The notes: generated by a model from the sequence alone, not told the origin. A stretch of 64,000 nt of DNA from Octopus vulgaris (GCA_951406725.2 OX597815.1:60078001-60142000); one strand, 5' to 3'. Positions 6,922 through 54,583 are shown, numbered from the stretch's first letter. A program made the numbers and translations.

Positions 6922-7520
6922 GATCCACGGATAATTGTTTAATTATTAATGGTGAAACTTCGAAGTATAGATTTCACTGGTCCTTTTATATCTTTTCATA
7001 GTGTCTTGCACTTGTACATCCAACGCGCCGTTAAATTAGAATGCATGTTTCGTGGTTAGACGATTTGGAATCTACTTTAATCTTATATTTGAATATGATT
7101 TGCAGTCCTTGGACCGTTTTTTACGCATGCTGACTACTGATATAAGTTATTTTTTAATAATAATTTTTACCCTTAGTATTTATATTTTTAAACATTTTAG
7201 TTCTCGAGTAGGGTAATTCACTGCTAATTTATTCTGGCTTGACGTGCTAGTTGAATTGAACGCATGATGTATAATGGTGGAACTCGTTACGCACGTGTGT
7301 TCTTTCACGGAGATGGTATGTATTCGAGTTCTATTATTGCGTCCCCAGCGGATTCCACTGATGGTCCACGGATAATTGTTTAATTATTAATGGTGACACT
7401 TCGAAGTATGCAATTGACTGGTCTTTTTATATATTTTCATAGTGTCCTGCACGAGTACATCTAACGCGCTGTTAAATGACAACGCATTTTTCGCTGTTAG
7501 ACGATTTGGCGTCTACTTTC
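6922..7520 (+). mobile_element. Retrozyme-like module: 441-bp unit plus ~155-bp terminal direct repeat, each repeat with an HHR remnant
   Basis: 6924-7078 is repeated at 7365-7519 (diverged). HHR motifs at 6922-6973 (5' part lost) and 7352-7414. Confidence 0.7.
7352..7414 (+). ncRNA. Degenerate type I hammerhead ribozyme
   Basis: attcca-CTGATGG-tcca..tggt-GACA-cttcgaag-TA-tgcaat. The sister copy at 6922 supplies the canonical GA and GAAA. Helix III palindrome ACUUCGAAGU. Confidence 0.6.
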
Positions 7521-7539
7521 AGCATGTAATATATTGAAT

Positions 7540-8600
7540 ACATATATATATATATATATACACATACACACACATACGCACACACGCATATACTTATACA
7601 CATGCACACACACACACATACATACATACACCCATATACATACACACACACATACCTACATACTCCTATACGCACATACATACACACAGACATACACACA
7701 TACACACTCACACAAACATACACACACACATACTTACACACACACTCACCTGCACGCGCACACACATGCATGACAAACACCCATACACTCACACTCACAT
7801 ACGCACACACCAACATAAACACGCACACGCACACACACACCTACACTCCCACACACATACACACGCACCTACATACACACACGCACGCATACACACGCAT
7901 ACACACATACATTACACACGTACACACACACCTACATACACATGCATACACACACACACACAAACATGCACGGACACACCCAGACATACATACATACACC
8001 TATATACACACGCCCACACACCTACATACACACACATATACACACGCCCACACAGCTACATACACACACATACATACACACATACACGGACACACCCATA
8101 CATACTTACATACATACACCTATACACACACGCCTACACACCTACACACACACATGCACACACACACACATGTACGCACACACATATATACCCACACACA
8201 TGCACACACACACACATACGCACATACATGCACGCATGCACACGCGCACACCTACACACATACACACACACACACACACACGTACACATACACATACATA
8301 CATACACACACGCATACATACACCCATACACATACATGCATCCTACACACACATACATACACACTCACACATACATACACACACACGCACTCACTCACAC
8401 ACCTGTATGTTCGCGCACACACATGCACATACACACACTTCCCCACACCCACACGTACATACATACACACTCATACACATACACACACACATACTCACAT
8501 ACATTCATCGGACACACTGCCACCCAGACATACACACAGACACACTCACACATCCACACACACACATACGTACGCGCACACTCGCAGGCGCGCGCACACA
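7540..8600. repeat. Long degenerate (CA)n/(CATA)n microsatellite
   Basis: Direct reading; source of the spurious His/Thr-rich ORFs. Confidence 0.97.
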
Positions 8601-9289
8601 CGCGCTTGCGCCGGTTCGCGCACGCATGCGCGCCGCATGCACCTCGCCCTTGGACCCGACGAGACCTCCTGCCCGTTCCTGGGATGTCGCTTGTCGTTGG
8701 GTTTTCCCACGCCCGTCTCCGCGGGACCACTCTTCCATCTTCCCCTCCGCTGGAGTCCTTTTCCTTAACCCCCCCCCTTTTTTTTCCGTTACACACACGC
8801 GCACACATATACACACATTACTTAAACATATACATTACTCTTACACACATTCAATCTACTCGCCACTAATACTACCACGACACTGGACACACACACACAC
8901 TACTACTCAACACACGCTGGCACGCTACATACGCCCCCACCCCTTCCCCTCCCTCCCTTCCTCCTTCCTCCCTTGTCTTACTACTGACCTTTGTCTGCTA
9001 TGCTGCTGCTATGCTGACCACCGTCTCGCCCTACCTCACACGCCTACACACAGACGCACACACTAACACATACATATATTTTTTGTTTTTTTATCTCGCC
9101 TCACACACACACATACACACACGCACACGCACACACTCACACATACACACACATCTGTTGCGTTACCAACCTTGTCTCCACTCTTTTGCCTTTAAAAACC
9201 CACTTTGCTCTTGTTATCGTAAACATCCGCCTTTCACCATGTGTAACTCCTAACACCAGTCGTTTTTTTCTCTATCTCCGTTGCCCGCT

Positions 9290-9450
9290 CCGGGATCTTT
9301 CTTTCCTCTCTCTTCCTTCTTTATGTTTCCGACGAAGAGCTCCGCTCGAAACGTCATACCTCCCTGCTTCCATTTCCTGAGCGCCTATTAATAATAATAC
9401 TGTTATTGTTCCATTGTTGTTGTTTTTTTGTTTCCCGTTTGGATTAAAAT
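9290..9450 (+). mobile_element. PLE-type terminal repeat fragment ending in (TA)n
   Basis: Same family as 29139-29345 (minus). Architecture parallels the pLTR at 12878 (HHR, then cctgagcgcc..taata). Confidence 0.7.
9325..9359 (+). ncRNA. Minimal hammerhead ribozyme (U4C variant)
   Basis: gttt-CCGACGA-a-gagc-tcc-gctc-GAAA-cgt-C-atac; helix III palindrome ACGU. Confidence 0.6.
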
Positions 9451-9723
9451 TATATATATATATATATATATATATATATATATGTACAAGATAAGAAAAT
9501 GGAGAAATACATCTAAATCAAATATCAATTACCAGATAATACTCAATCACATACTTTATTAAACCACCACATAAGAGACTGTAGGGTTAAATATAAAAAG
9601 CAGAACAAATCAGTGTACATAAAGGCATGTACATAAAAAGTGTACATAAAAGAGTAATGTTGTAGAATATATATATAAAAGAGAATATAAATATAAGTAA
9701 ATATAAATATAAGTATAGATTAC

Positions 9724-9850
9724 ATCTTACAGCTGTTTCGGCCATGTAGATACGTATGTCTCATTTTACCAATATTAGCCTTTCATGGTAGGTCAATATA
9801 TAGATATAAATGAGACATTTACAAAAATATCATAAGGCCTCTTCGGAGAT
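9724..9850 (-). ncRNA. Type I hammerhead with ~100-nt extended helix II (U4C variant)
   Basis: Minus strand: atct-CCGAAGA-ggcc-[..atgtctcattt..atattgacct..aggctaatat..aaatgagacat..]-ggcc-GAAA-cagctg-TA-agat. Confidence 0.75.
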
Positions 9851-51927: not shown

Positions 51928-51997
51928 ATCCTGTACTCGAGTTTCGCTATTATTGATCAAATAAATTAATTTGATATCTGTAGCTCTTCAGCAGGAT
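51928..51997 (-). ncRNA. Type I hammerhead ribozyme, fully canonical
   Basis: Minus strand: atcctg-CTGAAGA-gcta..atcaaat..atttgat..tagc-GAAA-ctcgag-TA-caggat. Confidence 0.92.
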
Positions 51998-52303
51998 CGC
52001 TTATGAATGCATAATTATGTAAGTATAATAAGCACCGAAAAAACGTACGCAAGACAGCTCCATCTTGATATAAATAAATATATATATATATATATATATA
52101 GAGAGAGAGAGAGAGAGAGAAAGAGATAGATAGATAGATAGATAGATAGATAGATAGATAGATAGATAGATAGATAGATAGATAGATAGATATAGCTATA
52201 GATATTGTATAAAGGATCGTGGGTAAGGCCAGAACAACGCGAAGTGAATGCAAAGCAAGTCACAAGAAAACAAATATATGAATTAATGTTGACTTGCCTT
52301 GCA

Positions 52304-52339
52304 TTCAATATTTCGGGGTTATAACCCCATTTTCAAGAA
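52304..52339 (-). ncRNA. Candidate ultra-minimal hammerhead with U3-A8 core
   Basis: Minus strand: ttc-TTGAAAA-t-gggg-ttataa-cccc-GAAA-tat-T-gaa. Confidence 0.45.
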
Positions 52340-53417
52340 ATTAACGAATATTGCTGATGTGCATTGTTCTGGCCTTACCCAAGATCAGTATATTCTACGC
52401 AATGCTTCATAGAAATTATTCCATTATAATATATATATATATATATATATATATATATATATATATATATAAATTTATGATGCACAGAAGCGTATATGAA
52501 ACCCAGTTGTGTGAAATAGGGAGATTTTGAGGAGTAAAGAGTAGGAAGATAGAGTGGGTGGGCGTGGGTAATAAACAAAGCAAAAGGCGGAGTGCGAGAA
52601 TTTGGTAGAGCATGAAAACAAGGCTTTTGCTCGGAACCGAAATACATGTACACTTGCATACACACCCGAACACATACACATACATAGCTCCTAGATACAC
52701 ATATACACACACTCACACATTGATACATATAACTCCCAGCACCCTCACGCCACACGCAAATACACATATACGTACAACACATGCAAATGCACACATCAAC
52801 ACAGACACCCCCATATATATATATATATATATATATATATATATATACACACACACGTACACAAACGCACATATGACTCCCCAACACAGACATACACATG
52901 GAAAAAACAAAGATACCTCCGCATACATATATGCGAGCATATACATATAGACACAATGGAAAGAAGACACGAGAGATAATGCCAGTGTTGGTGTTGTTGT
53001 CTGTGTGTAATAGATTAAGTGTGAAGACAAGATGGCGTCAGTGTGGTTGTGGTGGTGGAGAGGAGGTGAGAGGAAGTGATGGCATGTTTGGTCGGTAACG
53101 GAAGGGATGTCCTAGATAATTCTTTTGATGACAAGAGCAACGGCAGCAGCAACAACAACAATAACGTCACAACAATGATAACAACAACAACAACAACTAC
53201 AACAACAACCACAACGACCACAAATACGATAACAAAAAGAAAACTTCAAAAGCCACAAAACAAGTCGGCGAAGAGAACTTATAATAAAAAATCAGTAGTA
53301 GCAGCAGCAGCAGCAACAACAGCAACAATAACAACAAAGAATAGGTCCAACGCCAACAACAAGAACAAGAACATCAATAATAACCATTAAAAGCGTCAGA
53401 CCATATTCCAAACTCGA

Positions 53418-53459
53418 TGCCAGATGGAAGGACTAATCTCCTTCGAAATCAAGAAAGCA
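53418..53459 (+). ncRNA. Degenerate hammerhead-like motif
   Basis: tgc-CAGATGG-aagga-ctaatc-tcctt-c-GAAA-tcaaga-AA-gca; several core substitutions. Confidence 0.35.
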
Positions 53460-53597
53460 ACACTTCAGATGGAAATACTGAATAGTGTTGAAACACGCTC
53501 AATATTTCTGTACTACACAACATTACATGAAAATACCAGTACAAAATTTCATACGAATATATGATATAATATAGTGTACGCATATTATATATATATA

Positions 53598-54583
53598 TTT
53601 GTGTCTATGTTTTTCGTCTCTCTATGTGTTCGACGTCTTTTTGGTGTCCTGTACACATATATGCGTGTATATGTACATGTAGAGGTAGGTACGTACATAT
53701 ATGTTTATATATATGCATATATTTTATTAACATATTATACGACTAAACGCACGCACCCTATTAAGTAAGATTGTTCTGTTTATCAAGTTCGCCTTGATAT
53801 TAACTCTCACGCGACTCTGCATCTTTCTTTCTTTCTCTCCCATTCTCTCCCATTCCCTTTTTCGTCTTTTTTCCCTCACTTAACTTGTCTCTTCCTCTCT
53901 CTCTCCCCCTCACTGTTCTTCATGGTCTCCTCGCACCATTCCCCTTCTTCTCTCTCTTCCTCTTGCTCCTCCTCCCCATTCCCGTCGTCCATCTGCGACG
54001 TTACTTCCGTCGTAACTGCTCCTGTCCTTTCTCGCCCGCCTTCTAAGGCCACTGGTCGACATCTTCCTCTCTCGTCGTCCACTATAATCCAGCGTTTGCA
54101 ATACTTTTTTCGTCTGGCGTTAACAGCCCTTCTTATCTTGTTCTCCTTGTCCTGTCTCTCACTGTTATATATTTATTTTTCCACTGTTTATATATATATT
54201 TTTTATTGTTTATATGTTTGTACTGTCGTTACCGTCTTGCTTTTTTTACCCCTCTGCAAAAAGATCTCAGAATTTTAATTGATTTGCTTTTCGCAGGAAG
54301 GAATTTTTCATTCGAAGTATACGTCTCGCTTTTATCCTTCGAAACGTTTAGTAGATGAAACTTTAGCGACTGAAGAAGGGGATTTTTCGTTGTGCTTATT
54401 GTCCTGTATCTCTCTCTCTTTTTTTTTGCCTGTCTTGTTCCTTGGTTTGTGTCTATGTTTTTCGTCTCTCTATGTGTTCGACGTCTTTTTGGTGTCCTGT
54501 ACACATATATGCGTGTATATGTACATGTAGAGGTAGGTACGTACATATATGTTTATATATATGCATATATTTTATTAACATAT
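53598..54583 (+). mobile_element. Non-coding PLE-like module: 848-bp unit with identical 138-bp terminal direct repeats in (TA)n
   Basis: 53598-53735 is identical to 54446-54583; pyrimidine-rich interior; HHR-like elements at 54334-54383. Confidence 0.8.

What the first reader, a model, noticed from the sequence alone, without database searches (positions are those of the whole stretch)
6922..54583. Recurrent 'one unit plus partial repeat' architecture suggests reverse transcription around circular RNA templates
Seen: five non-coding modules consist of a unit plus variable terminal redundancy: 441+~155 (6924-7519), 469+~350 (10563-11379), 432+~75 (35658-36165), 485+~295 (51283-52061) and 848+138 (53598-54583). 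The coding PLE is 4133+~220. The HHR may lie inside or outside the redundant part. Inference: arbitrary start points and overlap lengths are what more than one lap of RT around a ribozyme-generated circle would leave. Template jumping between linear RNAs is the alternative.
Basis: inference. Interest (0 to 1): 0.7.

Follow-up and report, generated by a model that had tools for sequence, protein, structure and literature searches.

The report
Penelope retroelement copies, one rearranged ribozyme
The repeats are real but are the known partial-tandem layout of Penelope-type jumping genes and do not prove copying from RNA circles; one of them, however, carries what looks like a self-cutting hammerhead RNA in a rare scrambled order that I found reported only from environmental RNA, not from an animal genome.

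Summary
All six 'unit plus partial repeat' modules are real: one broken Penelope-like element (PLE, Neptune/Nematis type) and five non-coding modules with hammerhead motifs, ending in TA-rich DNA. This layout is the PLE pseudo-LTR, and the circle-template idea was published in 2014 (PMC4209133). The premise of arbitrary start points fails. The 3' end (where reverse transcription starts) is fixed within families. Four of ten 5' ends lie 122-129 nt before the cleavage site (post hoc P 0.002-0.04). I favour uncleaved linear read-through RNA (0.55) over circles (0.30); neither is excluded. The unexpected part is module 5 (54321-54391). It fits a non-circularly permuted type-SGC hammerhead: block order, all core bases, 3-nt linker and all four helices. 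A strict scan found 0 such hits in 2 x 60 Mb of null sequence; given the other two blocks, the chance of the cleavage block is 6e-5 to 1.5e-3. The 583 published SGC ribozymes come from environmental RNA. Cleavage and covariation are untested.

The parts
6924..7519 (+). M1: non-coding module, unit 441 + overlap 155 (1.35 units); two degenerate type I hammerhead motifs, predicted sites 6967 and 7408
   Evidence: old (12.9% between copies); motif score not above shuffles
10562..11379 (+). M2: non-coding module, unit 469 + overlap 349 (1.74 units), between TA tracts; two type I motifs with G at position 17 (10686, 11155)
   Evidence: 221-nt identical tract inside the overlap, P=1e-4 against even scatter
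10476..10528 (-). inverted copy of M2's first ~50 nt, head to head across a TA tract
12603..12877 (-). solo piece of an M3-like family with a minimal type I hammerhead (site 12787); its 5' end abuts the PLE's 5' end head to head
12878..17217 (+). Penelope-like element: pseudo-LTR, ORF, pseudo-LTR; minimal type I hammerheads with A6U at 12991 and 17124; 3' end in a TA tract
13706..16520 (+). PLE ORF (reverse transcriptase, then CX4CxxC motif and C-terminal GIY-YIG endonuclease); broken by five frame changes and one stop
   Evidence: tblastn with homologue P0006; 387 homologues at E<=0.001 among 1158 candidates, best 72% identical; Pfam RVT_1 and GIY-YIG hits below cut-off in the window pieces; motifs read
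17652..17931 (+). solo M3-like piece between two TA tracts; type I motif, site 17778; 5' end 126 nt before the site
35655..36165 (-). M3: non-coding module, unit 432 + overlap 79 (1.18 units); one minimal type I hammerhead, site 35936, outside the overlap
51280..52064 (-). M4: non-coding module, unit ~486 + overlap 299 (1.62 units); two intact type I hammerheads (51443-51512, 51928-51997)
   Evidence: Rfam RF00163 above gathering score
53598..54583 (+). M5: young non-coding module, unit 848 + overlap 138 (1.16 units), between TA tracts; member of an abundant repeat family
   Evidence: 4480 and 13304 contigs laid from two runs
54321..54391 (+). candidate type-SGC (non-circularly permuted) hammerhead: stem III 54321-24/54344-47; GUC site C54325; stem I 54326-30/54365-69; linker 54331-33; stem II 54334-40/54378-83; GAAA 54341-44; core 54370-76; extra base 54377; fourth helix 54354-60/54385-91
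   Evidence: compared with PMC10085705
971..1083 (+). 5'-truncated third copy of the M5 family, about 87% identical, ending at the same 3' site in a TA tract
54805..55250 (.). head-to-head inverted pair of an M3-related family with degenerate hammerhead motifs

Best explanation
These are partial-tandem insertions made by a Neptune/Nematis-type Penelope-like element and by non-coding passengers that borrow its enzyme. Steps: (1) RNA is made from a promoter inside the upstream repeat, starting about 120-130 nt before the ribozyme site, and runs through the unit and the second repeat (inferred). (2) The GIY-YIG endonuclease nicks TA-rich DNA (flanks shown, enzyme inferred). (3) Reverse transcription starts at a fixed internal TA-rich site 93-281 nt after the ribozyme site (position shown, chemistry by analogy with the anole PLE). 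(4) It copies through ribozyme sites that were not cut and stops at the RNA's 5' end or earlier, which leaves one unit plus a variable overlap, or a short 3' stub (inferred). No circle is needed. Identity as PLE partial tandems: about 0.93. A linear uncleaved template as the main route: about 0.55. Separately, M5's ribozyme is most likely a type-SGC hammerhead that cuts after C54325 as a monomer (about 0.65, untested), which makes M5 the best candidate for a real circle.
For: Fixed 3' ends: third M5 copy; 12603 and 17931 pieces share an end; loose ends 'behind' at 53728 (21, 21 and 3 contigs in three runs) and 53735 (9, TA repeat), and summed contig depth falls about 17x, 7x and 28x across 53735 in 3 of 4 runs (three bins either side). 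In 6 of 6 modules the unit itself is T/A-rich at the 3' end site, and the 3' flank is a TA or other microsatellite tract, directly or within about 20 nt. 5' ends lie 122, 124, 126 and 129 nt before the site in 4 of 10 ribozyme-bearing pieces from four families (P 0.002-0.04 by null, post hoc). One of these is a solo repeat with no full unit, as internal starting in the first repeat would give. Literature: fixed internal RT start, ribozyme mutants that do not change insertion, no reads ending at the site (PMC11167929); internal promoter with transcript starting in the upstream pseudo-LTR, and variably truncated upstream copies (PMC2377424); low activity of minimal PLE hammerheads (PMC4209133). 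Both M2 copies carry G17, which established hammerhead knowledge (recalled) says blocks cleavage.
Against: A linear route does not renew the two repeats, so they should drift apart; PMC2377424 says no regeneration mechanism is obvious. M5's overlap copies are identical (0 of 138) although the locus differs from the family majority at five listed sites in about 660 nt outside the overlap; about 2 differences were expected by my arithmetic, P about 0.12, which leans weakly to one molecule copied twice. Animal retrozymes with canonical hammerheads do make abundant circles (PMC7229834). A working SGC ribozyme would destroy linear read-through RNA of M5. The 5' cluster was noticed after the fact, and 6 of 10 pieces are outside it. 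No step at the equivalent place (about 54200) is visible. The tool warns that contig depth is no copy number, run X1 shows no step, and 376 loose ends were not shown.
Confidence: 0.55

Rival explanations
1. Circle template. Tandem RNA is cut at two ribozyme sites and ligated to a unit-length circle; the PLE enzyme starts at a fixed internal site and runs a little more than one lap.
For: All six modules run through an intact site. M5's overlap is identical, including four sites that are polymorphic in the family. It explains how pseudo-LTRs are renewed. Circles are shown for coral, mussel and axolotl retrozymes (PMC7229834) and proposed for PLEs (PMC4209133). That all six are under two laps is not a strong objection (P 0.08-0.77 under short processivity). 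M5's four-helix ribozyme suggests cutting matters in that family.
Against: A circle has no 5' end, so it does not predict the 122-129 nt cluster. M3 and M5 each hold a single site and cannot make a circle themselves. M1 and M2 motifs are defective. For the anole PLE, cleavage is not needed and uncut RNA is the main template. No circular RNA evidence could be had: all 24 runs listed are contigs, and the head-to-tail junction seen in run X5 also exists in the DNA.
Confidence: 0.3
2. Template jumping between cut linear monomers, or repeated insertion of a new copy into the TA-rich site of an existing copy.
For: Head-to-head joins show that one locus can hold more than one template: an M3-like piece abuts the PLE's 5' end, M2 has an inverted stub, and there is an inverted pair at 54805-55250. 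The anole enzyme cuts and extends both strands and can target its own repeat. M2's differences are bunched at both ends of the overlap (P=1e-4).
Against: The unit-to-unit joins and ribozyme sites are seamless in 6 of 6 modules. No 5' end in the window lies at a cleavage site. M2's pattern is equally explained by gene conversion or assembly polishing.
Confidence: 0.12
3. Ordinary tandem duplication or long target-site duplication of host DNA beside a monomer.
For: M3's 79-nt overlap lies beyond the 3' end of three relatives and follows an internal TA tract, so it could be a duplicated flank.
Against: The overlap holds the ribozyme in 4 of 6 modules, and is high-copy family sequence in M5. The start of M3's overlap matches the continuation of a relative at 55200 (21 of 24 columns, P=0.002).
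Confidence: 0.03

Closest known systems
Canonical EN+ Penelope-like elements, Neptune/Nematis clades (PMC8557442; PMC2377424)
   Same: RT followed by C-terminal GIY-YIG with an upstream CX2-5CxxC motif; partial tandem with variably truncated upstream copy; inverted 5' pieces; microsatellite targets; hammerhead in the pseudo-LTR.
   Different: This copy's ORF is broken. The inverted neighbour at its 5' end belongs to another, non-coding family. Clade was judged from motifs, not from a tree.
Non-LTR (animal) retrozymes (PMC7229834; bioRxiv 10.64898/2026.07.22.740005)
   Same: Non-coding, low-GC units of 430-850 nt with hammerheads, living beside PLEs, proposed to be PLE pseudo-LTR derivatives and to move through circles.
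   Different: Here 1.16-1.74 units rather than dimers to multimers; two modules have a single site; most motifs are minimal or damaged; M5's motif is not type I; no circular RNA is shown.
Type-SGC hammerhead ribozymes (Eckert et al. 2023, PMC10085705)
   Same: Block order S-G-C, all core bases, 5-bp stem I, 3-nt stem I to stem II linker, optional base before G10.1, and a fourth helix joining the free sides of stems I and II.
   Different: The 407 + 176 published examples are from RNA datasets (main habitat soil), beside hairpin ribozymes. This one is in an abundant genomic repeat of an animal, has a palindromic stem III like minimal PLE hammerheads, a weak stem II (two G-U pairs and a bulge), and no covariation or cleavage data.
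PAc, Poseidon PLE of Anolis carolinensis (PMC11167929)
   Same: Fixed internal start of reverse transcription downstream of the hammerhead; AT-rich targets.
   Different: Different clade. PAc starts in an AC-rich stem-loop unlike the target, whereas here the 3' end sites are T/A-rich like the target, which suggests short pairing with it (inference).

Membership tests
EN+ Penelope-like element (12878-17217) | Single ORF with PLE-type RT and GIY-YIG endonuclease | tested here: met
   tblastn covers residues 1-899 of a 904-aa homologue in seven pieces; homologue has RVT_1 and GIY-YIG
EN+ Penelope-like element (12878-17217) | Partial tandem forming pseudo-LTRs with a hammerhead motif | tested here: met
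   motif is an A6U variant found by my scan, not by Rfam
Neptune/Nematis clade | C-terminal endonuclease preceded by CX2-5CxxC | tested here: met
   motif in ORF 15918-16955; definition from PMC8557442
Neptune/Nematis clade | Placement in an RT tree with named references | not tested
   no named clade references were fetched
Non-LTR retrozyme (M1-M5) | Non-coding unit, about 150-1000 nt, low GC | tested here: met
   units 432-848 nt; no protein family expected or seen; only microsatellite or low-complexity ORFs overlap
Non-LTR retrozyme (M1-M5) | Tandem with a complete type I hammerhead in at least two consecutive units | tested here: not met
   met by M4 only (1 of 5); M1 degenerate, M2 G17, M3 and M5 one site, M5 not type I. 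They work like retrozymes or their daughters but fail the strict definition of the 2026 preprint
Non-LTR retrozyme (M1-M5) | Expressed as unit-length linear and circular RNA | not testable with these tools
   only contigs were available; two runs guessed to be RNA hold M5 sequence
Type-SGC hammerhead (54321-54391) | Block order site - GAAA - CUGAnGA | tested here: met
Type-SGC hammerhead (54321-54391) | All conserved core bases, A15.1-U16.1, G10.1-C11.1, NUH site | tested here: met
   exact core, GUC site; no variant listed at 3% or more in these positions in four runs (tables partly cut, family young)
Type-SGC hammerhead (54321-54391) | Stems I, II, III and a ~3-nt stem I to stem II linker | tested here: met
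   5 WC pairs; 4 pairs (2 G-U) + bulge + 2; 4 WC pairs; linker 3 nt
Type-SGC hammerhead (54321-54391) | [quoted passage not shown] | tested here: met
   7 pairs, 2 G-U; chance 0.038 on its own
Type-SGC hammerhead (54321-54391) | Covariation in the stems | tested here: inconclusive
   no homologues found: 0 hits for the specific pattern; 0 of 123 loci from the loose pattern fit SGC; no host genome held
Type-SGC hammerhead (54321-54391) | Self-cleavage at the predicted site | not testable with these tools
   needs an assay; the nested minimum-energy fold is a different structure (-16.9 kcal/mol, z 0.40), and pseudoknots cannot be folded here
Type II (GSC) hammerhead, alternative reading of M5 | Stem I hairpin after a site at 54348 | tested here: not met
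   5 of 7 pairs with mismatches at positions 2 and 5; fails the strict scan; no Rfam hammerhead hit

The most novel reading that the evidence does not exclude
An abundant animal retroelement family carries a working type-SGC, non-circularly permuted hammerhead, the first outside environmental RNA that I could find. It arose from a dimer-type minimal Penelope hammerhead: a short internal duplication and the palindromic stem III let one copy supply the cleavage block and the next the GAAA block. This would give a route to non-circular permutation, which its discoverers could not explain, and a monomer-active ribozyme that makes M5 a true circle-forming retroelement.
Probability: 0.5. Interest if true: 0.72.

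Novelty: new variant of a known kind. Interest (0 to 1): 0.52.

Why it matters
The finding as posed is known: partial tandems define PLEs and the circle explanation is in print since 2014. How pseudo-LTRs are renewed is still open, and this window points to a cheap test: where 5' ends fall, and whether overlaps share private variants, in the young M5 family. The new element is the SGC-type ribozyme candidate. If it cuts, it extends non-circular RNA permutations from soil RNA agents to an animal genome, offers a visible evolutionary path to them, and shows that type I-only descriptors, as used in the retrozyme surveys I read, miss whole families.

Tried and rejected
Unmasked self-BLAST was swamped by microsatellites. 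Rfam: only M4 passes; the miRNA-family hits are microsatellite artefacts, and M5's region gives no hammerhead hit. M5 as type II: dropped for its weak stem I. A spliced ribozyme in M5: an acceptor-like tract lies before 54298, but no canonical joint was listed in the two runs guessed to be RNA; not pursued. M5 as a direct derivative of this PLE: the only alignment is between pyrimidine tracts, and the repeat regions score no better than block shuffles (247 and 78 of 500). 'Never two laps' as an argument against circles: uninformative. The unique flank 53420-53524 had no cover in any of four runs; nothing is concluded from it. Four motifs were absent from the PMC8557442 supplement. Earlier-findings look-ups by place and sequence were empty. 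Not readable: the PMC7229834 supplement, bioRxiv supplements, and Lünse et al. 2017, any of which could describe these motifs. Protein folding and complex tools were not used; they do not bear on the question.
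Full report
Setting. The window is eukaryotic repeat-rich DNA (37% GC, 115 tandem-repeat rows) with LINE, integrase and transposase fragments. The nearest clusters of one LINE ORF are eukaryotic, most often animal, and the few named homologues of the PLE are from corals and a shark. I take the host to be an animal; 'octopus-like' is my recalled impression and comes from no call. No host genome is held.

Observation. All six redundancies are real, with the lengths and divergences listed under the observation check. 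They amount to 1.35, 1.74, 1.18, 1.62, 1.16 and 1.05 units. Orientation from the ribozyme motifs is + for M1, M2, M5 and the PLE, and - for M3 and M4. [quoted passage not shown] By the description in PMC8557442 (passages) that motif marks Neptune and Nematis; I built no tree.

The 3' end is fixed. In all six modules the unit is T/A-rich at the 3' end site, and a TA or other microsatellite tract follows directly or within about 20 nt. A third M5 copy at 971-1083 ends at the same place, and two M3-like pieces share an end (12603 and 17931). I laid contigs of 4 of the 24 listed runs on one M5 unit. The best-supported loose ends lie behind 53728 (21, 21 and 3 contigs) and 53735 (9, followed by TA repeat). 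Summed depth drops about 17-, 7- and 28-fold across 53735 in three runs and not in the fourth. The tool warns that contig depth is no copy number, some 53728 ends may be indel variants in a T run, and 376 loose ends were not shown. The in-window copies and the contigs agree. So the start of reverse transcription is not arbitrary, which matches the internal fixed start shown for the anole PLE (PMC11167929, parts 1-3 of 4 read). M3 ends about 95 nt further on than three relatives, so a second site or subfamily exists.

The 5' end. Measured from the upstream cleavage site, 5' ends lie at 43 (M1), 124 (M2), 129 (M4) and 122 (PLE); M3 and M5 stop 203 and 121 nt short of it. The solo piece 17652-17931 starts 126 nt before its site, and the 12603 piece about 90. 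The two arms of the inverted pair start within 54974-55036, at most about 95 nt from their sites (read). Four of ten fall in 122-129. Simulated chance is 0.002-0.04 depending on the null, and the cluster was seen after the fact. A wall suits an RNA with a 5' end. In D. virilis the transcript starts inside the upstream pseudo-LTR from an internal promoter (PMC2377424, passages).

Circle or not. Every module runs through an intact ribozyme site, so the template was a circle, an uncut tandem RNA, or a seamless jump. For a circle: M5's overlap copies are identical, also at four family-polymorphic sites, while the locus departs from the family majority at five listed sites elsewhere (P about 0.12 by my arithmetic), and a circle renews the repeats. 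Against: the 5' cluster, the single sites of M3 and M5, G17 in both M2 copies, and the anole result that ribozyme mutants insert normally. I put linear read-through at 0.55, circle 0.30, jumping or re-insertion 0.12, plain duplication 0.03.

What is known. PMC4209133 (part 2 of 4 read) proposes that ligated circles serve 'more-than-unit retrotranscription' and explain head-to-tail PLEs. PMC7229834 (passages and Discussion) shows circles for animal retrozymes and names PLEs as mobilisers. A 2026 preprint (10.64898/2026.07.22.740005, parts 1-3 of 5) ties retrozymes to pseudo-LTRs.

The unexpected part. M5's motif did not fit type I. My scan's second-best reading put a perfect 5-bp stem I next to a GUC site at 54325. 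Followed up, the region 54321-54391 has the order site block, GAAA block, CUGAnGA block; stem III of 4 Watson-Crick pairs; stem I of 5; a 3-nt linker; stem II of 4 pairs (two G-U), a bulge and 2 more; one extra base before G10.1; and a 7-pair fourth helix. This is the layout of type-SGC ribozymes (PMC10085705; sections 7, 12-15, part 1 of 18, and supplement passages read). The scan finds 1 hit in the window and 0 in each of two 60-Mb nulls (thresholds set after seeing the motif). With the GAAA and core blocks held fixed, a fitting site block arises with P = 5.6e-5 (Watson-Crick only) to 1.5e-3, and the fourth helix with P = 0.038. A strict six-permutation scan returns only this motif and M4's two Rfam-confirmed type I motifs. 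The listed family variants nearest the motif (54362, 54363) fall in an unpaired spacer, but the family is too young for this to count for much. Against: stem II is weak (about -3 kcal/mol), the nested minimum-energy fold is another structure that hides the core, and no homologues were found for covariation.

Is it in print? The supplement of PMC10085705 states that all its rearranged ribozymes come from assembled metatranscriptomes and lists both SGC sets as RNA; the terms Octopus, Metazoa, Mollusca and Eukaryota do not occur there. Searches for 'type-SGC' + 'hammerhead' and 'SGC' + 'hammerhead' + 'permutation' + 'retrotransposon' return only that paper. 'Non-circular permutation' + 'hammerhead ribozyme' lists six papers; beyond the original I read passages of one (PMC13725137) and saw only listings of the other four. 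PMC6431247 was seen as passages. Subscription journals, Lünse et al. 2017 and two sets of supplements were not available, so absence from print is not proven.

A possible origin (inference). Minimal PLE hammerheads have a palindromic stem III and act as dimers. In M5 the site block is preceded by a decayed GAAA-like stretch, and the GAAA block is followed by a decayed site. The two stretches resemble each other (shuffle P = 0.025), and the segment after the core has an upstream twin (P = 0.005). A short duplication that folds the dimer's cross-pairing into one strand would give the SGC order. These P values are for hand-picked segments.

Verdict. Observation confirmed; interpretation partly supported and already published; template unresolved, with a lean to linear RNA. 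One module holds a well-fitting but untested rearranged hammerhead, which carries the interest score.

Noticed in passing
window 12603-12877 (-) joined to 12878 (+): A non-coding hammerhead piece of another family sits head to head against the PLE's 5' end, as if two different RNAs were copied from the two strands of one cut; it hints that this PLE type mobilises that family.
   Followed up: partly
window 10476-10561: Palindrome centred on a TA tract: an inverted copy of M2's first ~50 nt, which keeps 11 nt that the adjacent direct copy lacks.
   Followed up: partly
window 10562-11379: M2's overlap has a 221-nt identical tract with differences bunched at both ends (P=1e-4), and both copies share G17; gene conversion or assembly polishing are possible.
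   Followed up: partly
window 51161-51238: Near-perfect hairpin of about 35 bp beside the TA tract at M4's 3' end; possibly a head-to-head stub of another element.
   Followed up: no
window 12955-12997 and 17088-17130: The PLE's minimal hammerhead has U at position 6 of the core (CUGUUGA) in both repeats.
   Followed up: partly
window 54280-54298: Splice-acceptor-like tract just before M5's ribozyme; D. virilis Penelope has an intron ending at its hammerhead.
   Followed up: partly
window 36663-38031 and 39934-41377: Direct duplication, 860 nt at 98.6% plus 300 nt at 80%, about 3.3 kb apart.
   Followed up: no
window 17250-17607, 18220-18597, 29369-29664, 55453-55752: Two pairs of 300-380-nt interspersed repeats, SINE-like by recalled resemblance, beside microsatellites.
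   Followed up: no
window 43088-44347, 46140-48414, 42076-43091, 62645-63664: LINE-type reverse transcriptase ORFs and fragments; one (43088-44347) lies at the end of another LINE fragment.
   Followed up: no
window 55811-55897 and 56055-56141; 27247-28864: Further inverted repeats of 80-185 nt, possibly small DNA transposons.
   Followed up: no
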